A stretch of DNA of 62,701 nucleotides, the filler included, from Asterionella formosa (taxonomy: Eukaryota): NCBI GenBank assembly GCA_002256025.1. It is 4 parts of 4 records of this genome, joined end to end, with 100 filler letters (N's around TTAATTAATTAA, not from the genome) between each part and the next. Parts side by side here need not be neighbours in the genome. Positions count along the whole stretch, not along the records: positions 1 to 29,380 come from NKIB01001040.1; 3 more parts are not named here. One strand, written 5' to 3'. The number at the start of each line of letters is the position of its first letter. The first letter of the stretch is position 1. The notes beneath the pieces are model-generated. The model did no database searches. It was not told the origin of the DNA and was given only the letters and a program-made list of their open reading frames with translations. Shown one piece after another: positions 3,995 to 60,862 of the stretch. Made by a program: the position numbers and the translations under genes.

Positions 3995-4318
3995 TGTGAT
4001 CTAGCTAGACAACCGTCAACACACGAGACACTTCATGAATGGACATTAATGAAACTTATAGCGCTCAAAGGAAAATCACACACTCCTCGTTACCTCCCTT
4101 CGTTGAGTTGTTGTTTCAATAATCAATCAATCAACACGAGTTGAAATAATCTCCCCATTTCTCTGTGATATACGCCAATAATGTGCACGAGAGGTAGCCT
4201 CCATTGGGGTTACTAGTATTGACTGGGTCTTGTTAGATATCTGTGTAACTTCTCTAGAATATTACAAAAATTGGTTGTGCTGCACTTTTGTTACTGTTAT
4301 ACTTCCTTACTAACGTGG

Positions 4319-5676: not shown

Positions 5677-6833
5677 GGTTGAACGGTTGATTTAGTTCGG
5701 ATTGCGTTGGGTTTGGCCGGTTAAAACAATAGAATTGTGTTCACAAATAACACACAGAGTAGCAGCTAAAAAAGAGGCAATTATTTGCCGTAATTATCAT
5801 CCCTATACCGGTAGGCACCTAAATAAATGAACGTGAGGCCAACACCAACGCTTTGGCTGTAATTTTGCTCATACTGTATGAAGTGCCAGATATTCCTACA
5901 GCAGTAGACTGACAACCTGGTACAGTACTCCTAACCAAGTACCGGTAGATGGCGGAGAACATCGTACACATGTACCGGTAAAGTACCGGGTAGCACAGCT
6001 CGCCCCTATCATATGAACCAGGTGGCTGGTACCAGTACCCTGGTACTAGGTACCAGGTCTCTAGCAGCACCAGGTACATTGCCTATGATGACGCACCAAA
6101 TGAAGTTAAAATCATTGTTATCATCTGCCTGGTCGAAGTGGAGGGACGCGGCTGGACGCACTGCAACATCATCTACGTTCGAATGCTTACCGGTATCGTA
6201 TCTTATGTTACCAGTCGTTCGTAGGAGCGAATCGAACATTCTACTACCAGTAGATATCGTGCATAGGCATGATTACTATGTACCGGTAGACTAAATTCCA
6301 TAAACATTCTGAAGCATTACATACCAGTAAACTTCATTATGATTGGATGCCCTACACCGGTAGACACGAAAATACGCACCCGCGTCCATTTCTACGGTAA
6401 GAACGCCTACCGGTAGTGTATGTGTTGGGATAAATAAAACGCACCTCACTGTTACCTGGCACTCAGCCACTGACTGCATGGCTGAAGGGCCTTTCTATCC
6501 ACTCATTCCTTCACAGAAGGAAGCTGAAATACCACGGAATCCTCGTCAACAGGTACCACTATTAAAATTTGAGATTTGATGAATAGCTTATATATGTGGT
6601 GGAAGTACAACACATACCCCACGGTGCACTATGTATATAGTAAATCCATCCTATCAGCCAGCAACAAAGAAGAATGAGAAAGGGATTTTGTTTCGTTGTT
6701 CGTTTTTCTTGGCTGATGTAAAAATACTCTAAAATTCATCATTATACATTCAGTAGTACGCCCAGCATCTAAAAGTCACTATTCATAGACTGAAGCAAAA
6801 TAATACGAAGCAGCCGATAGTCATCCAATCACC

Positions 6834-20111: not shown

Positions 20112-20767
20112 CTGTATAATTCAGAGTCCTGTCCTCCCCTGAGGTTGCGGGGGGGGGGGCCCGGCGCGGGGGGGGGTGGGTTGGCACCAAACACCCAATA
20201 ATTTTCTAGAAATAGACAAAGTAACGTACTGCAATTCTGTTTTTACTCGTAGGCACTGGTATATAACTATTTAGCTACAATTTTGCGATTACTTTTGTAC
20301 AATATAAAACACTAGAGTGCGAAGGTAGTGGTTGTGAGCAGCTGGAGACTCCTGCATCATGTTGTCGCAACCTTGACCATGACGAAAATACGAATTATCT
20401 CCGCTGAAATTGAGAACAACACTTTGCTGCTTGCTACGTACATTAAGCACGGCATAGAAAATACAATGTTGAAAGAAGTAAAGTAATAACACTAATAATG
20501 ACAACGAAAATTGGGATTGCCAATAGCAACATGAAGTCGCGTTTTTCTTGCGAGGTGAAGAACTCTCTCATTGTTCACCGGACGGAAATAGTTGTCGTAT
20601 TTTTGTATATTAGTAGAAAATGCGCTCCATCCTGTAGAGCCGATAAAATGTAGATAGGCCCATTATAAGGGAAGTCTCTTCATTTTCCTCCCCCCTTAAG
20701 TAAAATCAGTCAAATTCAGTCACGGCATTGTTCATTGGGGGGGGGGGCAGGACACTGAATCATACGA
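20112..20767. mobile_element. Non-autonomous Tc1/pogo-type MITE
   Basis: Imperfect TIRs CTGTATAATTCAGAGTCCTGTCCTCCCC / GGGG...GCAGGACACTGAATCATACGA with TA on both flanks. Confidence 0.55.
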
Positions 20768-22130: not shown

Positions 22131-24124
22131 ATGACCAATGGAGATCGCGTACACAAGATTAGCCTTAGCTCAGATTCGAGTGAAGATGAGGGAGATAAAG
22201 ATCACACAGATCAGGGTCCACCAGCACCTGAAGCCGTTGGCGCTCCTGTCGTTGCACCGATGCCATTTGTGATTCATCCTCTTCTCCCAACGAACACGAT
22301 ATTTCTGAATCCATTTTGGACCTTTCATGTAGCTGACCACTATATGGTACCATTACTGGGTCAGCAGTCTCCAATAGCTTCAACAACTGGGCCGCATTTG
22401 CCTGGATTATTGACTACATCTGAATCCATTGAATACCAAGATCATGCAGGTGACGAGCAGCAGTGTAATATCAGCAACACGGATGAACCCTTCCCAGTTA
22501 AGCTTCATCAAATGATGAGCGATTCTTCCTGCTCTGAAATCATTTCGTGGATGCCTCATGGTCGTTCGTGGAAGATTCGTGATACTGTACTCCTTGAAAC
22601 AGCGGTACTTCCAAAGTATTTCAAGCACACTCGCTTCGCCAGTTTCATGAGACAAGTCAATGGCTGGGGTTTTCGACGATTTCCTTTAGGAAGCCTTGAT
22701 CACCGTTCCTATTATCATGAGGTGAGTTTTCTACGCATCCTCCGTTTGCGTTCTTTTATTATTTCGTTATTAAGAATAGCGTGTTTTAAGGGGGTCCAAA
22801 TGCAACAAGTCACGAACGAGTGATACTCTTAAGCATTCCGTTGCGGTACTTCACTGCTGTGTGACGGATAACTTACCTTTCTCCTTCATCTTCATGTTTT
22901 CAGCTGTTCTTGCGAGGCCGTCCACACCTCTGTCATGACATGAAGCGATCACGTGGAAAGCTGAAACCAATTCTCAACATAGATCATCCTGATTTCTACA
23001 GCTTATCCCTGTTTCTCCCGTTACCAGAGGTCTCGCCGGCTGCGTTAGCACCATTGACTATCGCCGACAGCTTTAGTGAGAAGGACCTTTCGATGAAACC
23101 CACAAGCCTTCGTGCACATACGCGTTGTTTGCTGTCCTCCGACAAGAAGCGCACATCTCGAAAGCGACGTCAGAAATTCCAAAGCAACAGGCCGATATCT
23201 CATGTCAATGAAGACAATGATCCGGAAGGTACAATTGAAATACCCACGCAACAGTGGAGTTCCTCAATACTGGATACCAATCCCAAAACTTCTTCGCTAC
23301 ACGTCAGTATTAATACGCTTCAAAACTTCGCCAACAGCGAAAGCGTAGCAAGTAATTCAAGTGACTTTCGTGAAAGTGGGACCTCCATGGACTTTGGAAA
23401 TAAGGACTCTTCATTTGATACTTTGTGGCGTGGGAGCACAATAACTTCAAAAGATCCACCTTCAAACAATTCCATGTGCAACCAAGACAAGGATGAGATT
23501 TCCTTCCCCCAAATACCGATTCCTTCACCTGGTATTTTGTCGGTTGCTTGTGAGTCAGGTAACCCATACGAAGGTTTGGCACAACTTGCACCTTTCTTTG
23601 CTGCACATGACCTTCTGGAACCAGTATCCGCTGCACAACCATTTCCTGGGCCTGGTATACCCTTGAGCCATATACCTCAAGCATTTTTTTCTTTTTCTCA
23701 ACCTCAACCACGGGTCCTTCCTGCAATAGTACCGACATCCCAGTCCTCTGGAATGGCACAGATGATGCCAATGCATCAGGGAGTTGTCAGGAATCCCATG
23801 CAATTTCCAACACCTCCACCATTCTTACCCCTGTCTGCACCAACATGGATGCAGCAGCAACCACTGTCACAAGCACAGGAACAATCGATTTCTACCAATC
23901 TGCTATATCCTCATCTGAATTCCCCACGAAATTACTTGTCCACATCTTGGCCAGGTGTTCAACAGCAGTTCCTAGCAGGACAAACGCAAAGGCCCACCTT
24001 AAACCCTGATGCATTGCATTTCGATCAGCCAGAAATGGATTTCTCAGAATGGAAGCATGAAGAATCGAACAGTGATGAGACCACAGAATCTAGTGAAGGT
24101 AACAATGGCAGATTCATTAACTAG
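22131..24124 (+). CDS. Heat shock transcription factor family protein, 2 exons (intron 22722-22903)
   Basis: HSF DNA-binding domain PFPVKLHQM...IISWMPHGRSW...YFKHTRFASFMRQVNGWGF...YYHE|LFLRGRPHL; P/Q/S-rich tail. Confidence 0.93.
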
Positions 24125-24322
24125 GTTCAGGGGTTTACACCCAAGAATATGAAATTATTATTATTTGCTATCCAGTGTTATTTGCTATCCAGTGTTGATG
24201 GTGCGTCATGTAATAGTATTCATTTTTTGCTTCGCCTAAAATTATGGACAAATGTGATAGTTTGAAGTGACAGCACCAGGGCAATCTTTGTATAAATAAG
24301 TATACTACCATGGTATCATTAA

Positions 24323-25669
24323 CTTCATTTATTTAGAGCCTTCAGACTACAATAGGTGATTAGGGGAGCCTGCATGGCGCTTCCTGGCAGGTCCAACATG
24401 GGCATCGAAATAACTGCGCCCTCCAAGTATCAACAAATGTGGTGACTTCTGGTGCTCGCATATGGGGAATTTTCTGGTGAGGTACACTCTCTCAAATGAG
24501 AGTAGGGATCAAAATGGTGCCAAATGTGCTGAATTTAATTCTTTCACCTCATCAGGTATTAGGGAGGAAATTCAATACCTTTGGTTGTTCTTGTTGTGGC
24601 TGTTTGGACCACATGTTTGGCGAGATGCCACTTGCTCGTCAAGGACACTGTGATAAAAATTGTCGCGGAATTGTTGCCCAATCTATTTCATTTTCTTCCA
24701 TTTTCCTTGTAATTTTTACAGAGACTTGGACCTTGAGTGTCAATTGTACCATTCATTGACGCCTCTTTTCTGATGATTCTCAACAGGGAAGCCGGAAAAC
24801 TTTGTAGCTTGACTATACCAGTGCAGTGGCAGATTCCTTGTTGGTCTGTATTTGTTCTAGATTAGTTCCTATTATTTTCACCTTGATACTTAGCGAAAAA
24901 AAAGAACATCCATTCTTACTAACAATGTACACTACCTGGTACTACCATGACATAGAACTGATCTCAATTATAATGCAGATGTACTATGTACAGCGTATGC
25001 AGTGAGCTACCTACAAGCACATGAAAGAATCAACAGAAACAACAAGAAACTCAAGGAGCTTGACGAAAATCAATGGAATGCAACAACATGCATCATTCAA
25101 TTGATGAGCGCATTTGTCGATGTACTGGCATCAGAAGTGAGGCTCCATTGGCGCTTTGAGCTACACAATAATTACAGAGTATGCAATGAGCTAGTACAAA
25201 CACATGAAAGAATCAACAGAAACAACAAGAATTCAAGAAAAGTCATGATGATCATGTCACCACATTTCACTTTGATCCAATCAGTTGATATGAGCTAAAG
25301 CTGCACAATATTATCAGAGTCTGCCATAAATACCACAAAGGCAAGGCAAACACATGGGAGGCAAATATATGCCTCATTAAAAGATCAAACCAAGCTATCT
25401 GCCTTCTCCTCAGTCATCAAGATGTGGGGACAGATTAACTCACCAGTGCCAGAATATGAAATTTACACCACACATACTTCCCCCTACTCTCATTCGAGAG
25501 AGTGTATCCACCCTTTCCCCGCCTTGCAGTGCCCAAAAGTCGGCACATTTGTTGGGTTGATACTGGGTAGGTTAAGATTTTTATACAACCTAGGCTGTCA
25601 ATGCCAGGAAGCGCCATGCAGGCTACCCTACTAACACTTGAGTAGTCTTAAGGCGCTTAATCAATGAAG
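24323..25669. mobile_element. Non-autonomous DNA transposon, piggyBac-like
   Basis: About 220-bp imperfect terminal inverted repeats with TTAA directly outside both ends (24319-24322, 25670-25673); internal ~185-bp direct repeat. Confidence 0.65.
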
Positions 25670-25965
25670 TTAACTATGATAGTACATTTGGTACTGCACA
25701 ACCAAATATTTTACATATACAGAAAAGAAAAGGAATTTTATTTCTATGATAAGGTAGGTCTATGTATTTACCGGAATGGGAGGAATTATGCTCAGGGTAC
25801 CAGGTACCTGGTACGGAGTACGAGGTACCCGATGTAGCTCTTGTTGGCACTAGCATGAGAACAACCCTTTCCATTTTGGTTTTTTCGTCATTGTCAAGGC
25901 AAAGACGCATGAAATTATGCAGGATTCTCCAGCTGCTCACAACCCCTACTGTACACTCTAGTGGT

Positions 25966-25990
25966 CCCTAACCCTAACCCTAACCACTAA
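25966..25990 (+). repeat. Interstitial telomeric repeat (CCCTAA)3+
   Basis: CCCTAACCCTAACCCTAACCACTAA. Confidence 0.85.
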
Positions 25991-26929
25991 AACATTCAAG
26001 GACCTTTCCTCAGAAACCGACGCCCTTGTTACTTCCTTCTCCCAAGCTATTAAAAAAAAATCAAGCTTACTTCAGCACTCGAACTCAAAACCACGAAGAT
26101 CGCAATTGCATCTCATATTCTTGAAAGTCTAACTATCTTAGCTAAAGGCAGCATCTTAACAATCACCACGGAAAGTACCATCTCCAATGAAATGATACTA
26201 GATGTGATCAAAACAGTCAAGTGCAAACCAGCGATTCAAGAACTACTAGTCAACGCTGATACAATTAATGCCGCAACTTAACTCTATGATCTCCTTCCTC
26301 CAACAGTTTATACTCAAGACCAACTACAGCTTTTGTCACAATCCAACTTACAAATCAACCTAAAGTCAACAATCGTTCAAACAGTCATCCCAACGTTCAA
26401 ACAATCGATTCTACATATGTAAATCAATTCACGCAACGCATTTGATCAAACAAACATAATCAACAAGCAGAAACTCCGTATGGAATCCTTCTCCAAAATG
26501 ACACTTTTTGACAATACTACTACATTATTGACTATGGAATTCGACAAAGAACACAGCGTAGAGCCCAACCAACTCTCCAAATTAATCAATGATAAAGTAA
26601 ACAAAGCCACACTATCAATGAGAAAAGAGCTTGCTAAAACTTAAGGAAACATCAACACCAAAAAACACCTCAAGAGGGGCAACCGATACAACCGACACAA
26701 CAGTCAAACCTGGAAAGAAATCAACAAACAAAACAACCAAGACAACTTCAAGAAAGAAAACAGACCAAAGCGCCTCACAAAAAAAGAAAAAAACAACCGG
26801 TCAACAACATAACCATTGACTCCAAAAACAAAGCCGATGTTATAGACTCAGATACCTCGACAGAGAACAAAAAACTCTCCAAAAAACTGACAAAAAAGAA
26901 GAAGACGAAATAGCTAAGAAACATCATTA

Positions 26930-28420
26930 ATTGTTTTCCGTTGCGATAAAAACCTTGGTCCAGCCATTTTATGAACGATCTCGATACATCAACATGGCTC
27001 TCAATGACCATCTCCTAAACAAAAATATCTATCGACAAATTTCTGAACAACAAGCTGAAGGAAGGATAAAGGCAATCACCAAACTGACTACGAACTTTAG
27101 TCTTAAACACTTCAAACCTAAGGAAACAACATCAACGTTCCTTAACCGTTCCCTACAAACAAAAGACCCATTTGCATACTTCTACTTACTGGCGAAAATA
27201 CATAAGACACCGCTAACAACCCGGCCCATCATCATTGTGAGTGGAAGTATCTGCCATGGTCTAGGCAAATGGACTGATGTCAGTCTTCAAAAAATCACTC
27301 AACATCTCCCATTTACCCTTTCAAGCTCCTTCAAGCTTGTCCATGATATTCGCTCCATTAATAACGTCTCAACAACCGCAACCTTATTTACCATGGACGC
27401 AATCTCTATGTACACTAACATAGACACAACCCACACTCTTTCCGTCATTAATAAATTCCTATGAATTGACAGACCAGACATCTGCCTCAACGAAGATATT
27501 AATATTTATGCACTCATAAATGCACTCGAAATTATCATGCGAGATAACATTTTTAAATTCGAAAATACATACTGGATCCAAACATCTGGAACAGCTATGG
27601 GGACACCTCCGGCACCAACATATGCCACCCTCTATTTTGCAATTCACGAAATACAAACCATCCCAACCTTTCCACAAATATCCTTCTACAGAAGGTAAAT
27701 TGATGATTGTTTTATAATCTGAGTCCCTACATCAACTACCCATATCGAGGATCAAAAATCACACAACTCGTTTATCAGCTTGATGAATAATTTTGGCACA
27801 CTAAAATGGAATGCAGAACCACGGAGATTATCAACAACTTTCCTGGATCTCACTATTTCTATCAATCAACACACCCGTTCTATTGATACAACACTATTAT
27901 AGAAATCTATGAATCCCTATCTCTACATACCACAACATAGCGCACACCCTCCCGGTGTCCTTCGCGGTATTATTGCAGGCATGATCCGCCGAATCTACCA
28001 TTTAACAACGGTCGAGACACATTTTAAAACTGCAATCCATTCTTTTTACAACCGCTTACATGTCCAAGGTTATTCTGCTAAAACCCTTATACCCATCTTT
28101 AATACATACATCAAACAATTATGTATTAACAAATCGGACACCACCAACACGGCCACTCAAAGAACGGACACAAACACAGAGCAATGTGTGTTCCTCCACA
28201 TGCCATTTCATCCGAACAACCCTCCATCATCTCACATACAACGCATCTTCCAAGACACTATATTTTCCCCGAAGAAAGAACCAACTCTTACTTCACTACG
28301 GAATTTTCTCCGGAAATCAATGTACTATGCAAAGGTTGATAATTGCTTATAATCGCCCTAAAAATATTGGTAATTATACATCACCACGGAAACTGAGATC
28401 GGAAACCACTTCAGTCAGTA
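26930..28420 (+). pseudogene. PLE reverse transcriptase pseudogene
   Basis: In-frame stops at 27462, 27696 (Tyr of YIDD) and 27720; frameshifts near 26970 and 28310. Confidence 0.85.
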
Positions 28421-28617
28421 CTCACCTACTTACAACGCAAATTGATAGCAAACAGAAAACATCAACGCCAACCAGGTCCATGCTACCAGGTACCAGGTGC
28501 CCTCCACCTCCACTCTCAATACCGCTTCAACTCCTGGTGCATTTTCACAGCCAAACACGTCTGTACACCCCCCCCCGGCACGCACCAGGACCACAACAAA
28601 ACATTACTACAGATGCA

Positions 28618-28676
28618 TGCCAACTGATGAAGCCCCTTCAGGCGAAAAGTAACATTAGTCTCATTACTTTTTGGCA
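28618..28676 (+). ncRNA. Type I hammerhead ribozyme motif
   Basis: Stem I TGCCAA/TTGGCA; core CTGATGA; stem II GCC-CCTTCA-GGC; GAAA; stem III AAGTAA/TTACTT; NUH triplet UUU at 28668-28670. Confidence 0.8.
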
Positions 28677-28720
28677 ACTTAAGTAGTCACCTCATCGTCG
28701 CTGGATAATAGTCATTGTAG

Positions 28721-28752
28721 CCCTCACCCCTAACCTAACCCTAACCCTAACC
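28721..28752 (+). repeat. Interstitial telomeric repeat (CCCTAA)n, imperfect
   Basis: CCCTCACCCCTAACCTAACCCTAACCCTAACC. Confidence 0.85.
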
Positions 28753-29007
28753 GGCGTACAAGCCGAGCACGCAAGGAATGGACTCTGTCCTTATCATCCA
28801 GACATTCAGCTTCGCAAAGAGAATCTGTCTGGAGTTTTGAAGACTGTGCGAATAAAGACGAGAAAGTCCAAGTCAAAAACAAAAAATTACCACTAATTGA
28901 TAATCAAAATATAACAGATTTCGTTATTACAAAAATAAATAATAATTGATCCTCTTATAATTACCATAGAAACCATTTCCCACGTTGGGTCAATATGAGT
29001 AGTGCTC

Positions 29008-29380
29008 CTATAAGTTTTTCTTATACGTGGCATTGGAGTTCTGAAGTCCAGAAAAACAAGATTCTTGCACCTTAGCATTGGAGGAATGAGTCTTCATTGT
29101 AGAGAGAGTCGTAATGATACCTCCTGCATCAGCAATCGTCACCTGGTTCTTGTCAATATTCGCAGACAAGCACAGAAGTGCTCCACAACCATTCTCTTGC
29201 ACCTTAGCATTGGAGGAATGAGTCTTCATTTCAGACAGAATCGTAGCGATACCTCGTGCTTCAGCAATCATCACCTTGTTCTTGTCATTATTCTCAGCCA
29301 AGTTCCTAAGTGCTCCACAACCATAGTGTTGAACATTAGCATTTGAGGAATGAGCCTTCATTGCAGACAGAATCCTAATG
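29008..29380 (-). CDS. Armadillo-repeat protein, 3' fragment (5' part lost in gap)
   Basis: 44-aa/132-nt tandem units MK.HSSNA.VQ..GCGAL..L..N.DKN.V.IA.A.GI. Confidence 0.75.
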
Positions 29381-29480
29381 NNNNNNNNNNNNNNNNNNNN
29401 NNNNNNNNNNNNNNNNNNNNNNNNTTAATTAATTAANNNNNNNNNNNNNNNNNNNNNNNNNNNNNNNNNNNNNNNNNNNN
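29381..29480. other. Assembly gap with artificial TTAATTAATTAA spacer
   Basis: N-run, TTAATTAATTAA, N-run; identical structure at 58824-58923 and 60763-60862. Confidence 0.95.
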
Positions 29481-34233: not shown

Positions 34234-34690
34234 NNNNNNNNNNNNNNNNNNNNNNNNNNNNNNNNNNNNNNNNNNNNNNNNNNNNNNNNNNNNNNNNNNN
34301 NNNNNNNNNNNNNNNNNNNNNNNNNNNNNNNNNNNNNNNNNNNNNNNNNNNNNNNNNNNNNNNNNNNNNNNNNNNNNNNNNNNNNNNNNNNNNNNNNNNN
34401 NNNNNNNNNNNNNNNNNNNNNNNNNNNNNNNNNNNNNNNNNNNNNNNNNNNNNNNNNNNNNNNNNNNNNNNNNNNNNNNNNNNNNNNNNNNNNNNNNNNN
34501 NNNNNNNNNNNNNNNNNNNNNNNNNNNNNNNNNNNNNNNNNNNNNNNNNNNNNNNNNNNNNNNNNNNNNNNNNNNNNNNNNNNNNNNNNNNNNNNNNNNN
34601 NNNNNNNNNNNNNNNNNNNNNNNNNNNNNNNNNNNNNNNNNNNNNNNNNNNNNNNNNNNNNNNNNNNNNNNNNNNNNNNNNNNNNNNNNN
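34234..34690. other. Assembly gap
   Basis: N-run. Confidence 0.99.
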
Positions 34691-35356
34691 NATACACTGA
34701 ATCGAAACTGATTACTTATCCGTTGAGTATATATAGTGAATCGTCGAACATACGCTTCGTACTTGCATCAGGTCGATTGATAAATTCAATAAATTTTTTC
34801 AGTCGGAAGATGGAGTAAAATAACGGTGGCTTCCAGTTTTTAACTGGTACCTTTACATGGTGCTCCTACCAGGTAACCTGGTTACCTGGTATACCACTGC
34901 TTTTTAACCGGAATTTGTACTGGCGTAAATGACCGGTAATTATAGAAAAAAAATTATCACACGACTGATGGCGAGATTTCCTGATCTTGAACATCCAGTG
35001 ATGAGGATACATCATAAGAAGCACATACAATTAATTAGCGGAGGGAATTCTCTAACGAATGAGAAAATCGCAGAAAAAAAACGATCAGTATCGTCGTGTG
35101 TGTTATCGGCAATCCGGTCTCGAAACAAAGAGGTGCTGCTTCATGGTGATTACAAACAATAAACCCCTGATACTTTTACAGGTTTACTTTAAGCAGTATA
35201 CGAAGCAGAGGGAAATTTCCTGTTTAGGGGGTTGCGCATGTATTATTTAACAAGTTCGCAATCGCCTATTATCAAGAGATCACAGATTGAAAACAATCTT
35301 CTTGATTGAGTGTGTAACCCAGCGCAAACGATATTGCGGCTTGCCCCTTGTTGAGA

Positions 35357-38239
35357 ATGCATGAGCTTTTGGGGTTGAAGCGATCGAATGGAGGAGCCTC
35401 GTCAGAGAAGCAGAGCTACACCACAACGATACTGCTTGAGGAGATAGCATCTCTGCGGAAGCGGGTCAAGGAGCTAGAGGATGACACTTCTTCTTCTGGT
35501 GCGCACAGTTCGCCTTCTTCGCATTCTTCAGACGCTGCAAATTTTGATGACATCGTCGCTGCCCTGAAAAAGGATCTGTCGAAATCACAGAATGAAAAGG
35601 CAAACATGGAACTTGATTTCATGAATCAGCTCTCAAGGCAGACAAGGGATCATAACGAAGCTATCGAGGAGCTCAACGCCAAAATTGCCAAGTCGGAAAG
35701 GGAAGTTACTTTGTTGAAAGACACCAGACCCAAGTCGAAGGACGAGGCAGCCGTGGCTATGGAGTCCCTTAAAGCGGCGCATGAGGCTGAGCTGAAGCAG
35801 ATCAAGGACGACCTTGCTGCTGCTGACAAGGAGCTCGAAGTTCATCGAAAGGATGCGGATGAACTTCATCAAAAAATGAAGGACCTGGAAGAGCAAAAGA
35901 AAAATCTTTCAGAAGAAGTCAAGGAATCCAGGTTAGAGCTGGAAAACGGAATGATCGCGGTTTCTTTTCTTCGAAATGAAGTGGACGAGGTGGAGAAACA
36001 CTACAAGATTCAGATCTCGAAGTTGGAAGTGCAATTAAGGGATCACGGGGTGGTCCAAGCTCGACAACAGGATGAGATTGCAACTTTAAATAGTTGTGTT
36101 GTCAATCTTGAGAACGCAAAATCGATGCTGCTAGACGAAATCACGGACCTCCGCATGCAACTGGACAGAGGGGAGGAAGCCAAAGTAAATCTATTGAAAC
36201 AGGTTGATGATTTCAATAAGCAACAGACGAGAGGTGGTGCGATATTAGCTTCTGCTGCCGTGGAGCAACGAGCAAAGGCAGCCGAGATCAAGATTGTGGA
36301 ATTAGAAAAGGCCAACCAGAAAGCGCAAACAGAGCTGCGTGAGATGACAATGTCATACAAAATGGATGTCGCCCGCCTTGAGGAAACCTTGTCGTCTAAT
36401 GAAGCGAAAGCAGACCAATTGAAATTGGATGTTCAGCGAAAAGAGAATGATCTCATCCGCATAAAGGAGCGATGTAACCTCTTGGAGAACGAAATGAACT
36501 CTGTGAAGGCTGATCTGGCCCGAGAGGAATCTGTTTCGTCTCAAGCAGATACTGAATTGACAAGCCTACAACTTCAACGAGTTGTTTACGAACAGCGAAT
36601 GTCTCAGTGCTTGATGGAGCATGTTGCTGAAATCGATGAAGTCAAGTTGGAAAACGCAGCTCTTCAAGCAAAAGTGCTAAAATACAAGAAAATGCTGGAC
36701 ACCGAAAAAGATTTGTTGGAGAATCAGAAAGTGGCAAATAACTTGAAAACAAAGGCGAACATCCAGCCTTGGATGAATCCACCTCCAATGGTACGCACAC
36801 CTTCGAACCATTCGATTTCTGGAAGGTGCTTTACTCCTTCAAGTATAGTCTCACCGAAAGGGTCTGCCCTTAGAGTGCCATCGCCCGGACGTAGCTTTCC
36901 TCCCTCAAGTCATGGTGCGTCTCCCAAACAGGCACATTCGGTGAGAGAACTCGCTGCCGCATTTGAGCCTAGTCCACGTACTATAACTCCACGTGCTGGA
37001 TTTGTGGGCTTCAAACAGCCTAAACCACGGCCAGAACCAGTAGTGACTTCTGCTGACGAGATTGAAGCATTGCAGCAGAAAGCGGAAAGTGCTATCAAGC
37101 AAGAGTGCCAGGCTCAAGTGGATGAATTGCAGAAGAAGGCGCTGGAGCAGAAGGTTGAAGAAATCGAAGAGCTGCAGCGGAATCTCAAAGAAGAAGTTGA
37201 GAAGAACGCGGCAATGGAGGAGAAACTCAAGAGTCAATCGCTTGCTATTGGTGCTCTGAGAGCGGAAGTTGCCAGTCTCTCAGCGACAAGGCTGGCAATT
37301 CAAGCTTTTTCCCGAAAAGAATACGAAGAACAAAGTACAAAGGATTGCGAAGAAATCTTGCGACTCCGCAAGGAACTGGATCAAGCGCGCGAGGAGCTTG
37401 AGCTTGAGGCGAAGGAAATCGTGAACCTCAAAACAGAGATCAGAGGCCTGACGTTGGAGCGCATGAACGAGGAGGAGAATGCAATGGTGGAATACGATGA
37501 CAAGGTTGCGGAAACCCGCAAGAACTACAGCATTGAGCTCAATCAGCTGCAGATGCAAATAACGAAGGAGCAGATTAGAAACAATCAGCTGGAGTCCGAA
37601 TACCGAATTCAGGTGAAGGAACTGGAAGACACTATCGAACAGCTCAATTATGAATGCGACAGAGAGCTTGATGCCAAGCAGGCCGAGCTTGACATCATGA
37701 AATACAAAATTGATGAGAATCTTGATAGCATGAAGCAACTTGAATCTGAACGCGAGCAACTATGTCTGTCAATGAACTCTCAGTCGAACGATAGGAAAAT
37801 TCAGTTTGATGAGCTTCAAGCGGAGCTATTGCAGGCAACCGCCATGAATGCAAAACTTGCTCGTGACGTTGAGAAACTTAAACTTCAGATTCACAATGAT
37901 GAAGCTGTAATTGAAGAACTTGAACATCTGCGAGAAAAGGTGAAGTGCTTGGAGGGAAAACAGCGACCGAGTAACTCAGCTACCCTGAAGTTCATGGAAA
38001 ACATACAGCTAGATGACCTGAAGGCAGAGAACGAAAGACTGCGTGAGAGTTTGCGACAAACCTCGATGGATAGGAGATTATTGCAAGACAAGATCAATGG
38101 CATGATGACAGAAAAAAATGAATCTCGGGCTGTTCAAGTCCTGCGAGAAAGAAATGAGCAACTTAAGTACGAAGTAGAAAAACTCAGCAAGAAGCTGTCA
38201 AAGCTTGACCGCCGCGGCAGCACGCGGCTTGAAGTTTGA
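35357..38239 (+). CDS. Large coiled-coil protein of unknown function
   Basis: About 960-aa E/K/L/Q-rich heptad ORF with a central S/P-rich linker; true start uncertain. Confidence 0.85.
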   Translation: MHELLGLKRSNGGASSEKQSYTTTILLEEIASLRKRVKELEDDTSSSGAHSSPSSHSSDAANFDDIVAALKKDLSKSQNEKANMELDFMNQLSRQTRDHNEAIEELNAKIAKSEREVTLLKDTRPKSKDEAAVAMESLKAAHEAELKQIKDDLAAADKELEVHRKDADELHQKMKDLEEQKKNLSEEVKESRLELENGMIAVSFLRNEVDEVEKHYKIQISKLEVQLRDHGVVQARQQDEIATLNSCVVNLENAKSMLLDEITDLRMQLDRGEEAKVNLLKQVDDFNKQQTRGGAILASAAVEQRAKAAEIKIVELEKANQKAQTELREMTMSYKMDVARLEETLSSNEAKADQLKLDVQRKENDLIRIKERCNLLENEMNSVKADLAREESVSSQADTELTSLQLQRVVYEQRMSQCLMEHVAEIDEVKLENAALQAKVLKYKKMLDTEKDLLENQKVANNLKTKANIQPWMNPPPMVRTPSNHSISGRCFTPSSIVSPKGSALRVPSPGRSFPPSSHGASPKQAHSVRELAAAFEPSPRTITPRAGFVGFKQPKPRPEPVVTSADEIEALQQKAESAIKQECQAQVDELQKKALEQKVEEIEELQRNLKEEVEKNAAMEEKLKSQSLAIGALRAEVASLSATRLAIQAFSRKEYEEQSTKDCEEILRLRKELDQAREELELEAKEIVNLKTEIRGLTLERMNEEENAMVEYDDKVAETRKNYSIELNQLQMQITKEQIRNNQLESEYRIQVKELEDTIEQLNYECDRELDAKQAELDIMKYKIDENLDSMKQLESEREQLCLSMNSQSNDRKIQFDELQAELLQATAMNAKLARDVEKLKLQIHNDEAVIEELEHLREKVKCLEGKQRPSNSATLKFMENIQLDDLKAENERLRESLRQTSMDRRLLQDKINGMMTEKNESRAVQVLRERNEQLKYEVEKLSKKLSKLDRRGSTRLEV

Positions 38240-58159: not shown

Positions 58160-60862
58160 ACAAGGAGCAGTCTTGGTCAGTTCCGTAGTGTGTAGACCCA
58201 TTGAAATATATTAGATGTTAGAGCACGGATTATCACCAAGCTTACTGCGCTCCTGCTAGTTCGAGAAAAAGGAGCAAGTATTCCAATATGAAGATGTCAT
58301 TGATGCCATTCCAGCCGACAATGAAGGAATACTTTGTCTTCCCTAGATTCAAATGTGAGTGGAAAAGTGTGTTGTTGCGCCATCACCGGAAAAGGTTGGT
58401 CAAACTGAATGCTATAGGCTTACAGGGTTCATGAGCATAGGGCCTAGGCTATTTTATCGACCGAGGTGATCTTCGTGGAAGGGTACAGTTATTCTAACAC
58501 ACTACTACTAGTAGCAACGTAAAACTAAATGTGTATGTGTATATGCTTAAGTGCTTTTGTAAAAGTTTTTTTATTTAATCCCACCAATGAACATTGAAGA
58601 TGTGCTTACGAAGCAATGGTACGTGAAACGAAAAGCATGATCATATTTCTGCAAATTCCACCTCATAAGTTCTAAAGTTAACGTATGTGGAAGGATGTGT
58701 AGGTGGCATTATGAACGACGGCGACGCTATAAAGGCGCTTCGGGAAGTCGTGTCTTCGACGCACTGTCCCATTCTCGACATGCATTCCAGAGCGTAATCC
58801 CATCTAGCCCGAATGTTACTTTCNNNNNNNNNNNNNNNNNNNNNNNNNNNNNNNNNNNNNNNNNNNNTTAATTAATTAANNNNNNNNNNNNNNNNNNNNN
58901 NNNNNNNNNNNNNNNNNNNNNNNCGGTAGTTTTGAATGGCTCTGGACTGTATTTCTCGTAACCACTCACTGTGAGCATCTTCGTACGTACGTAAGGACAG
59001 ACAATTTTAGCATTGTACCTGTACATACCTCTGGTGCTCCCTTCCCTCTGGTCGAAACCGATGAATTGCGTCAATTTGCAGCGGCTCAAGTGCCGAGCAG
59101 CTTGCTTTTAGGACAGATTGCGTAGTAGAATATATAGTAATTTTCTACCTGAAGGTACGCTTCCTCAAAAAGTGAGTTTTTAAAAAGTTACATAGTACCG
59201 TATGTAGTTGTGAACATATACTACTCGTCTGTTTCTGAAAATTAAATTATTAGCGTTTGAATAATTTAATGGAAACCAATTTAACATATATATATATATT
59301 TGTATACATATAAACATTCGGAACATGTACATACCACCAAATGCCTTTTTTTCGGCTGTTCCACGGCACCAGGTGAAAACCTATCTGGCCGCTTGCTTTG
59401 CCCTACCCCATCCATGTGGGGTGCTTGAGAGGCATAATGGGAGAATTCTTCCTCCTTTAAGCAATCACCTAATGCCATTTTACATCAGTTGGCCACTCAA
59501 ATATTTGCAAGAAACCAAATAAAGCATATCACTTTCATAATTATTATGTAGCTTGAATTACTGTCATTACATATACTTCCTATCATGGTAGTTACATTTT
59601 TACATGAACCATACTGCCGGATATTAAATGGTTCCAATCATCAAAACGAGCATAACATCCTTTTCTTCCTTCCCATCATAGCCGCTTTCGCAGTTGCACA
59701 ATCCATCCTTAAAGACATGTTACCATTGTTCTAGCTACTGTTAGTATGTTCGACTTTGTACGTATGTAGAGAATAGATGGACGGAAGTAAAATGGGTCCT
59801 CATGACTCTACATTTTGCTCAAGATAGCCAAAAGCGAAAATCGAGAAAAGCCCAAAAAGTTTTTTGAAATGTAGTTGCCAATTTTACTATTTCTATATTT
59901 ATTGTATAAATGGATCTGTAGCTTAGAGAAAGGCGCACATGAGGGCAATTAATCAGGAGAAAATTGTAAAAGTCAAAACACAACCCAGAGAAATTTTAAG
60001 AATTGACGCAATTTTTTTGTCTAAAGAGTGTAACTAAGTGTGTTCCTAAATTTGCATCCATCCAAACATACTGGAGAGTGGGGAGGGGGGCTCGCTGAAT
60101 TCACAGCCTGTCTGAGATACTCATACTGCCGGTAGTTGAGGTGATGTAATGCAACACAAGCTATGTATGTTATAGACCAAGAACACTACAATGCCAACAG
60201 CCACCTATATGCAATGCACTAGGCAGAATGGTAATTTTTGACTCCCATGGCGACTTTACTGTTGCGAAGCCAATTTAATGGCAGTTGTCGCCACATTGGT
60301 TTCTGCTTTTGGAACAATCACAACCAAACAGAACTTTCTGATGCGAAGATTCAACAGTGCCCAAATTTCGAAAGTATCAAATCTGTTTCTATCATCTTCG
60401 TTTTGAATTGTGCATCTCTAAATTGCATTAAAAAAAGGCGCCGTTGGCGACTTCAATTCTCGTCGTCAATATTAGTGTAATTACAATCATTTTTAACGAT
60501 TGTATTTTTTTATATTGTGCTTGATATACGTACCAATAGGAAAGCGTTGTTCTCAAATTTCGTGGAAATATTCGCTATTTTCGTCATGGTCAAGGCTGTG
60601 ATGATATGATGAAGGATTCTCCAGCTGATCACAAAGCATACACTCTAGTGTTTTGTATACATAAAAGAATCGCAAAAACTCAGCTAAATAAATCGTTTTT
60701 GTTGTGCAGCTTCTGTGAAAGTGGTCTCAAATCTTTTCATATCGTCATCATTTTGAATTGTGNNNNNNNNNNNNNNNNNNNNNNNNNNNNNNNNNNNNNN
60801 NNNNNNTTAATTAATTAANNNNNNNNNNNNNNNNNNNNNNNNNNNNNNNNNNNNNNNNNNNN

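What the first reader, a model, noticed from the sequence alone, without database searches (positions are those of the whole stretch)
25966..28752. Telomere-bracketed, endonuclease-less Penelope-like retroelement with its own hammerhead ribozyme, lying inside the contig
Seen in the sequence, on one strand: (CCCTAA)3, an A-rich ORF1 remnant, a PLE-type RT (GTAMG, [Y]IDD, YIPxxSAHP thumb, no GIY-YIG), a hammerhead fold and (CCCTAA)n. Established: EN-deficient PLEs (Athena, Coprina, Terminons) attach to chromosome ends, carry reverse-complement telomeric repeats at their 3' end, and have 5' truncations capped by telomeric repeats. Inference: this is a diatom Terminon/Coprina-like unit that was added to a chromosome end or break at 28752 and capped at 25966, then became internal. 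About 26 kb of gap-free genic DNA lies on the side that should be the telomere.
Basis: partly seen in the sequence, partly recalled or inferred. Interest (0 to 1): 0.9.

Follow-up and report, generated by a model that had tools for sequence, protein, structure and literature searches.

The report
Dead telomere-type Penelope-like retroelement copy
This is a broken, shortened copy of a known kind of endonuclease-less, telomere-attaching retroelement with its own hammerhead ribozyme, now sitting between ordinary genes; it is a real but largely ordinary relic.

Summary
Window 25966-28752 carries, all on the + strand:
- (CCCTAA)3CC.
- The C-terminal two thirds of an ORF1.
- A Penelope-like reverse transcriptase (RT) without GIY-YIG.
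- A type-I hammerhead, 28618-28676.
- A 50-nt tail.
- An imperfect CCCTAA tract, 28727-28752.

Rfam misses the hammerhead. A covariance model built from relatives finds it once in the window (36.7 bits), and the fold covaries strongly across 44 distinct sequences.

The copy is dead:
- It is 5'-truncated inside ORF1.
- It lacks at least the first 75 RT residues.
- It has two frameshifts and four RT stops, which other copies in the same sequencing runs do not share.

Intact 624-aa family members exist and none encodes an endonuclease. In the same runs, other copies are capped by telomere repeat at other 5' points. One of these caps lies exactly at the ribozyme cleavage site.

This matches what papers read here report or attribute to earlier work: endonuclease-less PLEs of the Athena and Coprina clades, and hammerhead variants in diatom PLEs. 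It is therefore a new member of a known kind, not a Terminon.

The internal position is real in the assembly (no N in 1-29380, with genes on both sides). However, the immediate left flank is a high-copy repeat, and no listed contig piece spanned the whole stretch or was shown to bridge either junction. How the copy became internal is not settled. Interest is modest.

The parts
25876..25965 (+). Left flank: a copy of a dispersed repeat, cut off at 25965 by the telomere tract
   Evidence: Copies at window 20394-20310 (-) and 60578-60650 (+). Both continue ...CTCTAGTGTTTT(A/G)TAT... beyond the point where this copy ends. Loose ends at 25949 in X1, X3 and X4 show the same continuation, and summed contig depth is about 30,900 against 625-725 in the flank bins 24000-24359 of X1.
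25966..25985 (+). 5' cap: (CCCTAA)3CC
25986..26653 (+). ORF1 remnant: the C-terminal two thirds of ORF1, read through 5 stops, with its 5' end missing
   Evidence: P0122 residues 24-222 align to columns 132-327 of 426 of an ORF1 profile built from 22 relatives (hhalign probability 93.2%, E 2.9e-7). tblastn gives weak hits to the regions upstream of the RT in L001, L072, L016, L026 and L023.
26654..26926 (+). Lys-rich basic tail of ORF1, followed by the junction of an internal deletion that removed the RT N-terminus
   Evidence: Read-through translation. P0128 residues 1-75 have no aligned counterpart in or near the element. The only tblastn rows touching them (E 1.9 at 37583-37825, E 9.2 at 6673-6813) lie elsewhere in the window, at E values expected by chance.
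26927..28574 (+). Reverse transcriptase pseudogene (DKN motif 26945-26953, RT core, thumb, Ser/Thr/Pro-rich C-tail). It has frameshifts near 26971 and 28304 and stops at 27462, 27699, 27720 and 27900.
   Evidence: tblastn places P0128 residues 76-90 at 26927-26971 and residues 83-619 at 26949-28574. Other copies in runs X1-X4 lack the extra bases at 26971 and 28304 and read C at 27462, G at 27722 and G at 27900 (tables 3 and 4).
28618..28676 (+). Type-I hammerhead ribozyme. Stem I 28618-23/28671-76; CUGAUGA 28624-30; extra A 28631; helix II 28632-43; GAAA 28644-47; stem III 28647-52/28664-69; U17 at 28670. Predicted cleavage is between 28670 and 28671.
   Evidence: Script parse. The covariance model gives a single hit in the window, 28618-28675, 36.7 bits, E 7.6e-8. 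Covariation.
28677..28726 (+). 3' tail with a conserved GGATAA box (28703-28708)
   Evidence: An exact GGATAA lies 15-29 nt after the hammerhead (one case at 50 nt) in 20 of 46 distinct tails of relatives. The background is 1.5% of random 70-nt windows. Another copy in X1 has the same tail running into the repeat at the same point (table 5c).
28727..28752 (+). 3' reverse-complement telomere tract: CCCCTAA CCTAA CCCTAA CCCTAA CC

Best explanation
Window 25966-28752 is a dead copy of a two-ORF, endonuclease-less Penelope-like retroelement (the Athena/Coprina kind).

Proposed mechanism of the live family (from the literature and inference): the RNA carries a C-strand telomere tract after its 3' tail. 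That tract pairs with a G-rich telomeric 3' end. The element's own RT extends that 3'-OH along the RNA and often stops early, and the new end is then capped with telomere repeats. The hammerhead, 57 nt upstream of the tract, cuts transcripts at a fixed point.

Proposed history of this copy (inference): it was laid down on a G-strand end whose proximal DNA is now 28753 onward. It stopped inside ORF1 and received a short cap. It later came to lie inside the chromosome when other DNA, a broken dispersed repeat at 25965, was joined to the short cap. It has since decayed.

Shown here: the identity and parts of the element, the absence of an endonuclease, the conserved ribozyme fold, the truncation, and the private decay. 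Inferred: priming at a chromosome end, capping by telomerase, and the later joining.
For: Identity and relatives
- 842 relatives at E<=1e-3. Intact 624-aa family members exist: P0128, P0131 and P0135.
- In a tree of 49 rows (24 of the 120 listed near-length hits, all 23 long hits, the window copy and P0128), the window copy pairs with P0128 (SH-aLRT 100) inside a clade of 26 short RTs (99). The only GIY-YIG-bearing row was set as outgroup.

No endonuclease
- PF01541 is precomputed on 0 of 120 near-length hits.
- No GIY-YIG family was found at the thresholds used (E<=0.01 or <=10) among the 83 relatives scanned (9+7+71, with overlap).
- 1 of 23 long relatives (P0167, 27% identity) carries PF01541, which serves as a positive control.

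Hammerhead
- 55 covariance-model hits in 78 sources, all on the RT strand.
- 85.8% of cells are paired against 59.2% in shuffles (0 of 500 reach it). The covariation score is 0.680 against 0.203, and slid controls give 0.055-0.143.

Termini
- Both telomere tracts lie on the coding strand.
- In run X1, contigs join the repeat to 27620, 27651 and 28671. Another copy has the same tail-to-repeat junction. Summed depth rises toward the 3' end, from about 3,000 to about 32,000.
- The 28671 cap is exactly the first base after the predicted cleavage site.

Literature
- PMC8557442 (passages) states that Athena and Coprina lack the endonuclease and attach to G-rich overhangs through reverse-complement telomeric repeats with adjacent hammerheads.
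- PMC4209133 (section 7) reports type-I hammerhead variants with a large helix III in fungal and protist telomere-associated PLEs, including a diatom.
Against: - This copy is not at a chromosome end in the assembly. Ordinary genes lie on both sides.
- No listed contig piece spans the whole stretch, and none of the pieces shown bridges either junction. The left flank from 24900 is high-copy, so the link to the 24 kb of genes further left depends on how the assembler resolved repeats.
- Rfam finds no hammerhead. The minimum-free-energy fold is not better than shuffles (z -0.49).
- The ribozyme lies upstream of the tract, so cleavage would separate the coding RNA from the tract that is supposed to prime. 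How both features serve one cycle is unexplained.
- Only 1 of 46 distinct tails of metagenomic relatives is followed by two or more CCCTAA units within 300 nt. Many carry (CAA)n instead.
- The host's own telomere repeat and the positions of intact copies could not be checked, because no genome is held.
- The 28671 joint rests on one contig with a 20-letter side, and the tool warns that sides under 30 are weak.
Confidence: 0.75

Rival explanations
1. One-step capture at an internal double-strand break. The element RNA, or its cDNA, was used to patch a break that was never a stable chromosome end. It was primed from a 3' end by microhomology with the CCCUAA tract. The 5' repeat came from template switching to another tract-bearing RNA, or from a template that already carried an upstream tract.
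For: The two flanks are not continuous with each other. The left flank is a dispersed repeat broken at 25965, and its expected continuation is absent downstream, as expected for a break or rearrangement site. Both tracts are very short, at 20 and 26 nt. The CC|GG junction at 28752/28753 allows a 2-nt microhomology. Relatives form head-to-tail units without telomere repeats between them: L016, L023, L041 and L065, with periods of 3.6-4.2 kb. This shows that the RT can join templates without telomerase.
Against: No direct evidence of template switching in this copy. The same end products are expected from terminal addition followed by fusion. In the same runs, several other copies are capped by the repeat at different 5' points, which is the pattern that PMC13159263 and PMC8557442 describe for terminal addition.
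Confidence: 0.2
2. The internal position is an assembly artefact. The unit and its immediate junctions are real, but the assembler threaded it through high-copy repeats into the wrong scaffold, and the true locus is subtelomeric.
For: Summed contig depth in X1 is about 28,000-152,000 in the bins covering 24900-25979, and 588,000-1,537,000 at 29040-29370, against 625-725 in the flank bins 24000-24359. No listed piece spans the whole stretch. A 132-bp tandem array follows at 29063-29378, and N runs start at 29381.
Against: The tracts (20 and 26 nt) are shorter than usual assembly word lengths, so words spanning flank, tract and element must exist in reads (inference). Exact, zero-difference contigs at about single-copy depth cover 25639-25810 (depth 470 in X1), close to 24073-24461 (depth 450). 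Zero-difference pieces of both flanks occur in a second study, in runs X2-X4 (table 8). There is no N in 1-29380.
Confidence: 0.12
3. It is an endonuclease-encoding PLE that merely lost its GIY-YIG domain in this decayed copy, and the telomere-like tracts are incidental microsatellite targets.
For: PMC8557442 (passages) notes that EN-less families occasionally arise within EN+ clades and that PLEs show an insertion bias for microsatellites. Relatives carry (CAA)n tracts.
Against: Intact family members end about 50 residues after the thumb and have no GIY-YIG. 0 of 120 near-length relatives carry PF01541. The only EN+ relative found has 27% identity and was set as outgroup in the tree, where the window's 26-row clade has 99% support. 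The tract is the exact TTAGGG-type complement at both ends.
Confidence: 0.03

Closest known systems
Coprina (EN-less PLE clade of fungi, a clubmoss, a shrimp and the diatom Phaeodactylum; Repbase Coprina Pt1, Coprina-1_Alen)
   Same: No endonuclease; a DKN motif, RT motifs 1-7 and a thumb; telomeric repeats on both ends of copies; an adjacent hammerhead (PMC13159263 and PMC8557442, passages; PMC4209133, section 7).
   Different: PMC13159263 describes Coprina as typically single-ORF, although its own Coprina-1_Alen has two or three. Relatives of the window copy have a separate ORF1 of 390-540 aa. No tree with named Coprina sequences could be made here. This copy is internal, not terminal.
Athena (EN-less PLE clade of bdelloid rotifers)
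   Same: Two ORFs, no endonuclease, a reverse-complement telomere tract and a hammerhead (PMC8557442 and PMC13159263, passages). The nearest ESM Atlas clusters (DUF8422 + HTH_animal) have Rotifera as the commonest recorded phylum (a lead only).
   Different: PMC8557442 calls Athena rotifer-specific. The runs that hold this window are labelled algae or freshwater metagenome. Placement was not tested with named sequences.
Terminons (giant Athena-based composite elements at rotifer telomeres)
   Same: An RT of the EN-less kind, and attachment through telomere-complement tracts (PMC8557442, passages).
   Different: Terminons are giant multi-gene units. This is a 2.8-kb fragment of a 3.6-4.2-kb two-ORF unit.
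Type-I hammerhead variants of fungal and protist PLEs (Cervera and De la Pena 2014, PMC4209133, section 7 and Fig. 3 legend)
   Same: Type I; a large helix III; helices I and II of varied size; located in telomere-associated EN-less PLEs; a diatom example (Thalassiosira oceanica) is named.
   Different: Here every one of the 26 parsed sequences has an extra A between CUGAYGA and helix II, and U at position 17. I could not see the figure, so I cannot say whether the published variants share this. An extra core nucleotide in viroid hammerheads is something I recall, not something I checked.
Endonuclease-independent LINE-1 insertion at breaks and dysfunctional telomeres (recalled; no paper read here)
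   Same: An RT using a free 3'-OH instead of a self-made nick, and internal insertions without target duplications.
   Different: A different RT lineage, with no telomere-complement tract and no ribozyme.

Membership tests
Penelope-like element RT | RT core motifs with the PLE-type DKN motif upstream and a thumb downstream | tested here: met
   RCDKNLGPAI at 26939-26968; [20 protein letters not shown], [Y]IDD and YLYIPQHSAHPP in register with 24 relatives. DKN, RT1-7 and thumb are named as PLE hallmarks in PMC13159263 (passages).
Penelope-like element RT | Profile match to curated RT or PLE domain families | tested here: inconclusive
   The Pfam copy held here gives no family for the window copy. 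For relatives it gives at most weak RVT_1 hits below cut-off (E 2.2e-4 and 1.1e-3 in 2 of 71). Precomputed PF28514 (DUF8422) and PF26215 (HTH_animal) lie on most of the 120 listed relatives, and the Atlas clusters add RVT_1. A profile search of the PDB found no RT.
Penelope-like element RT | Groups with named PLE clades, next to TERT, in an RT tree | not testable with these tools
   No named Athena, Coprina, Penelope or TERT sequences could be obtained. The tree holds unnamed relatives only.
EN-less PLE (Athena/Coprina kind) | No GIY-YIG endonuclease in intact copies | tested here: met
   PF01541 precomputed on 0 of 120. No GIY-YIG match at E<=10 for 7 relatives or at E<=0.01 for 9 and 71 relatives. 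P0128, P0131 and P0135 end about 50 aa after the thumb. Positive control: P0167.
EN-less PLE (Athena/Coprina kind) | Reverse-complement telomeric repeats at the 3' end, with an adjacent hammerhead | tested here: met
   Tract at 28727-28752, 50 nt after the hammerhead. A second copy in X1 has the same junction.
EN-less PLE (Athena/Coprina kind) | 5'-truncated copies capped by telomeric repeats | tested here: met
   The window copy starts at about ORF1 profile column 109, directly after (CCCTAA)3CC. X1 contigs show caps at 27620, 27651 and 28671.
EN-less PLE (Athena/Coprina kind) | Located at chromosome ends | tested here: not met
   This copy lies between genes in the scaffold. The positions of other copies are not testable, because no genome is held.
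Coprina | Typically a single ORF (as stated in PMC13159263) | tested here: not met
   51 of 53 relatives examined have a separate upstream ORF of at least 80 aa. Where it is not cut by a contig end it is mostly 390-540 aa. The window has an ORF1 remnant.
Terminon | Giant composite unit with many ORFs | tested here: not met
   The unit is 2,787 bp. The tandem period in relatives is 3.6-4.2 kb, with two ORFs.
Hammerhead ribozyme, type I | CUGANGA and GAAA cores, three helices supported by covariation, position 17 not G, helix I open | tested here: met
   26 distinct parses, all with U17. 11 of 13 pairs show changes on both sides; 85.8% of cells are paired against 59.2% in shuffles.
Hammerhead ribozyme, type I | Reaches the score of a curated Rfam hammerhead model | tested here: not met
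   No match at gathering score or at E<=10.
Hammerhead ribozyme, type I | Self-cleavage | not testable with these tools
   The only indirect hint is one X1 contig in which the telomere repeat is joined exactly to 28671, the first base after the predicted cut.

The most novel reading that the evidence does not exclude
The window copy belongs to a large, possibly unnamed, two-ORF lineage of endonuclease-less PLEs in aquatic protists. In this lineage the hammerhead sets the 5' end of the RNA that is copied: one copy in the same organism starts exactly at the cleavage site. The simple-repeat tract after the tail (telomeric here and in L058, (CAA)n in many relatives) decides which free 3' ends the RT can prime from. 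Under this reading, the window copy marks a chromosome break or shortened end that was patched by the element and then rejoined to other DNA.
Probability: 0.2. Interest if true: 0.55.

Novelty: new member of a known kind. Interest (0 to 1): 0.3.

Why it matters
For annotation, it is a clean, well-delimited example of a dead EN-less PLE copy with all its landmarks, found in an organism for which no genome is held here.

Three side results may be useful to specialists:
- The hammerhead variant of this lineage is invisible to Rfam, but a small covariance model recovers it easily.
- One sister copy begins exactly at the predicted cleavage site. If confirmed, this would be genomic evidence that the ribozyme cuts in vivo before reverse transcription.
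- Relatives swap the telomeric tract for (CAA)n.

The internal position could record a healed break or an end fusion, but that needs long reads and synteny.

Tried and rejected
- Rfam at gathering score and at E<=10 on 28350-28800: no hammerhead.
- Pfam on the window's pieces and on the read-through protein: nothing. The Pfam copy held here lacks the families that are precomputed on the relatives.
- PDB profile search with A1: only chance-level hits (E 0.1 or worse) to GapR-like proteins, and no RT.
- Own genome search: none held.
- First metagenome scan with P0002: 103 pattern matches, none confirmed. The second scan, with alignment A1, worked.
- G-to-A hypermutation as the cause of the strong GC skew (-0.35): rejected. 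75 of 77 relatives also have a sense-strand skew below -0.1 (median -0.206). The stops arise from mixed changes: the sister copies read C, G and G where the window has T, A and T.
- An alternative genetic code as the reason for the in-frame stops: rejected. All three stop codons occur, and sister copies have sense codons there.
- Thermodynamic folding of 28612-28682: z -0.49, so it gives no support by itself.
- Simple insertion with a target-site duplication: rejected. The continuation of the left-flank repeat is not found downstream.
- Earlier findings of this scan: nothing.
- Gladyshev and Arkhipova 2007 and Arkhipova et al. 2017: not held. What I say of them comes from citing papers or from recall.
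- Parts of the stretch without a listed bridging contig are not evidence either way.
Full report
WHAT IS IN THE SEQUENCE

All parts lie on the + strand.
- 25966-25985 is (CCCTAA)3CC. 28727-28752 is CCCCTAA-CCTAA-CCCTAA-CCCTAA-CC.
- The 12-mer CCCTAACCCTAA, with up to one mismatch, occurs four times in the 62,701-base window, only at these two places and only on the + strand. Shuffles give a mean of 0.14, and none of 100 reaches four.
- Between the tracts, frame 26931-28352 is open except for four stops (27462 TGA, 27699 TAA, 27720 TGA, 27900 TAG). It reads as a reverse transcriptase (RT) with GTAMG, [stop]IDD and YLYIPQHSAHPP.
- GC skew on this strand is -0.35 inside the element and about 0 on both sides.

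RELATIVES AND THE FAMILY'S INTACT FORM

- The read-through protein has 842 database relatives at E<=1e-3.
- The cluster of the best hit (P0002, 84% identity over its aligned part) holds three intact 624-aa proteins: P0128, P0131 and P0135.
- tblastn places P0128 residues 76-90 at 26927-26971 in one frame and residues 83-619 at 26949-28574 in another, at 73% identity.
- P0128 residues 1-75 have no aligned counterpart in or near the element. The only rows touching them (E 1.9 and 9.2) lie elsewhere in the window at chance level.
- The window copy therefore lacks the RT N-terminus. It has a frameshift near 26971 and another near 28304, in addition to the four stops.
- Contigs from four public runs (two studies) show sister copies without the extra bases at 26971 and 28304. 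They read C at 27462, G at 27722 and G at 27900, which restores Arg, Trp and Glu as in P0128 (tables 3 and 4). The damage is private to this copy.

THE REGION UPSTREAM OF THE RT

- A scan of metagenome contigs with an alignment of relatives returned 77 loci.
- In 51 of the 53 loci I examined, a separate ORF of at least 80 aa lies upstream of the RT. Where it is not cut by a contig end, it is mostly 390-540 aa. It matches no Pfam family beyond one stray hit in 22.
- The window's 25988-26971, read through nine stops, aligns to columns 132-327 of 426 of a profile built from 22 such ORF1s (hhalign probability 93.2%, E 2.9e-7). A Lys-rich tail follows.
- The copy therefore begins about 110 residues into ORF1, directly after the telomere repeat. 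It is 5'-truncated and capped.

ENDONUCLEASE

- None of the 120 listed near-length relatives carries PF01541 in the precomputed Pfam column.
- My own Pfam scans found no GIY-YIG family. They covered 9 and 71 relatives at E<=0.01 and 7 relatives at E<=10.
- Among 23 relatives longer than 1,092 aa, one (P0167, 27% identity) does carry PF01541, so the domain is detectable when present.
- The tree had 49 rows: 24 of the 120 near-length hits chosen by me, all 23 long hits, the window copy and P0128. In it, the window copy pairs with P0128 (SH-aLRT 100) inside a clade of 26 short RTs (99). P0167 was set as the outgroup.
- No named PLE or TERT sequences were available, so the named clade is not determined.

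THE HAMMERHEAD

- Rfam finds nothing, neither at gathering score over the whole window nor at E<=10 on 28350-28800.
- By eye and by script, 28618-28676 parses as a type-I hammerhead:
  - stem I: UGCCAA/UUGGCA
  - core: CUGAUGA, then an extra A
  - helix II: GCC-loop-GGC
  - core: GAAA
  - stem III: AAGUAA/UUACUU
  - U17, with the predicted cut between 28670 and 28671
- The same parse works for 25 further distinct sequences in the relatives. All lie 3' of the RT on its strand, all have the extra A, and all have U17.
- A covariance model built from these finds 55 matches at E<=0.01 in 78 sources, all on the RT strand. It gives one match in the window (28618-28675, 36.7 bits, E 7.6e-8).
- On the resulting alignment (44 distinct rows, 13 pairs):
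  - 85.8% of cells pair, against 59.2% in shuffles (0 of 500 reach it).
  - 177 cells change on both sides, against 57 in shuffles.
  - The covariation score is 0.680 against 0.203; slid partners give 0.055-0.143.
  - This alignment was fitted to the model, which leans toward the structure. The seed parse did not depend on the model.
- Thermodynamic folding alone is unremarkable (z -0.49).
- Section 7 of PMC4209133 reports type-I variants with a large helix III in telomere-associated PLEs of fungi and protists. Its figure legend names a diatom.

SISTER COPIES IN THE SAME RUNS (Logan contigs only)

- Summed contig depth in X1 is 625-725 in the flank bins 24000-24359; individual exact-match contigs there have depth about 450-500. 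Across the element it is 3,000-32,000, rising toward the 3' end. The tool warns that such sums are not copy numbers.
- Joints link the end of the repeat (25985) to 27620, 27651 and 28671. These are copies capped at other 5' points.
- Another contig shows a sister tail (one or two differences from the window) running into the repeat at the same position as in the window. This means a fixed 3' junction and variable 5' ends.
- The 28671 joint is the first base after the predicted cleavage site. It rests on one contig with a 20-letter side, because the reference tract is only 20 nt, so it is weak.
- Zero-difference contigs of both flanks and of parts of this very copy occur in X1 and in runs of a second study. 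X1 may be the source sample.

THE SURROUNDINGS

- There is no N in 1-29380. N runs are at 29381-29424, 29437-29480, 34234-34691, 58824-58867, 58880-58923, 60763-60806 and 60819-60862.
- By Pfam, the left side holds an amine oxidase, two PPR proteins and a peroxidase. The right side holds a DnaJ-C11-like protein, Efg1 and a TPR protein.
- The immediate flanks are repeats.
  - 25876-25963 is a copy of a dispersed repeat, also at 20394-20310 (-) and 60578-60650 (+). In those copies, and in run contigs, it continues ...CTCTAGTGTTTT(A/G)TAT.... In the window it stops at 25965.
  - 24900-25620 has very high summed depth and joints that vary in copy number.
  - 29063-29378 is a 132-bp tandem array in an armadillo-like ORF, with extreme depth.
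- The continuation of the left repeat is not found downstream of 28752. The unit is therefore not a simple insertion into continuous DNA.

HOW IT MOST LIKELY WORKS AND AROSE

The papers I could read in part say the following.
- Athena and Coprina PLEs lack the endonuclease. They attach to exposed G-rich telomeric overhangs by means of reverse-complement telomeric repeats with adjacent hammerheads (PMC8557442, passages).
- Coprina is known from the diatom Phaeodactylum (PMC13159263, passages).
- The proposed cycle is pairing of the RNA with an unprotected telomere, reverse transcription by the element's RT, and then telomere addition by telomerase (PMC13159263, passages).

With that orientation rule, 28753 onward is the proximal side and 25965 backward should have been the end. 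I infer the following sequence: terminal addition, or addition to a healed break, at 28752; early stop in ORF1; a short cap; later joining of other DNA, the broken dispersed repeat, to that cap; then decay. A one-step capture at a break and a mis-threaded assembly path remain open.

One geometric point is unexplained. The ribozyme lies 57 nt upstream of the tract, so cutting separates the coding RNA from the tract.

COMPARISON AND VERDICT

Every defining feature of the EN-less PLE kind that I could test is met, except terminal location of this copy. The Terminon features are not met. Assignment to Coprina or to Athena needs named references: the two-ORF layout is Athena-like, while the host is evidently not a rotifer sample.

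This is a new member of a known kind. Interest is modest. The points worth a specialist's time are the cleavage-site cap, the ribozyme variant that Rfam cannot see, and the (CAA)n-tailed relatives.

I could not see supplements or figures of the cited papers. They may already show the extra-A variant and diatom copies.

Noticed in passing
L016, L019, L023, L029, L030, L032, L035, L042, L050, L056, L057 and others: Many metagenomic relatives carry (CAA)n tracts. One tract lies just after the RT ORF. Another lies about 120 nt after the hammerhead, at the unit junction, which is where the window family has its telomere tract. Only L058 has a (CCCTAA)n tract, at 4230-4301 at the contig end.
   Followed up: partly
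window 28703-28708; tails of L001-L077: A GGATAA box lies 15-29 nt after the hammerhead in 20 of 46 distinct tails (31 of 46 with one-letter variants). The background is 1.5% of random 70-nt windows. Its function is unknown.
   Followed up: partly
L016 (3383, 7103), L023 (2302, 6010), L041 (2361, 5976), L065 (4, 4215): Relatives occur as head-to-tail units with a period of 3.6-4.2 kb and no telomere repeats between units. These are either tandem arrays or circularly assembled contigs.
   Followed up: no
window 29008-29424 (-) and 29063-29378: An armadillo-like repeat ORF built from a 132-bp tandem unit (2.4 copies, 85% matches). Its words reach summed depths of 0.6-1.5 million in run X1, against 625-725 in the flank bins 24000-24359.
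   Followed up: no
window 29381-29480, 58824-58923, 60763-60862: The same pattern occurs three times: 44 N, then 12 bases, then 44 N. This looks like masking of a recurring sequence rather than ordinary scaffold gaps. The 458-N run at 34234-34691 is different.
   Followed up: no
window 24900-25620: A repeat-rich stretch with an internal duplication of about 184 bp (25173-25231 against 24989-25048, 92%). Run contigs there skip 162-233 bases or go back 146, and summed depth reaches about 152,000 in X1.
   Followed up: no
window 25876-25963, 20310-20394 (-), 60578-60650: A dispersed repeat of about 90-150 bp ending in ...CACTCTAGTGTTTTATAT..., with three copies in the window and many in the runs. 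What it is, whether a small mobile element or a shared regulatory region, was not determined.
   Followed up: partly
all 77 loci and window 25986-28726: The sense strand of this RT lineage is G-poor and A-rich throughout. GC skew is below -0.1 in 75 of 77 loci (median -0.206) and is -0.35 in the window copy.
   Followed up: partly
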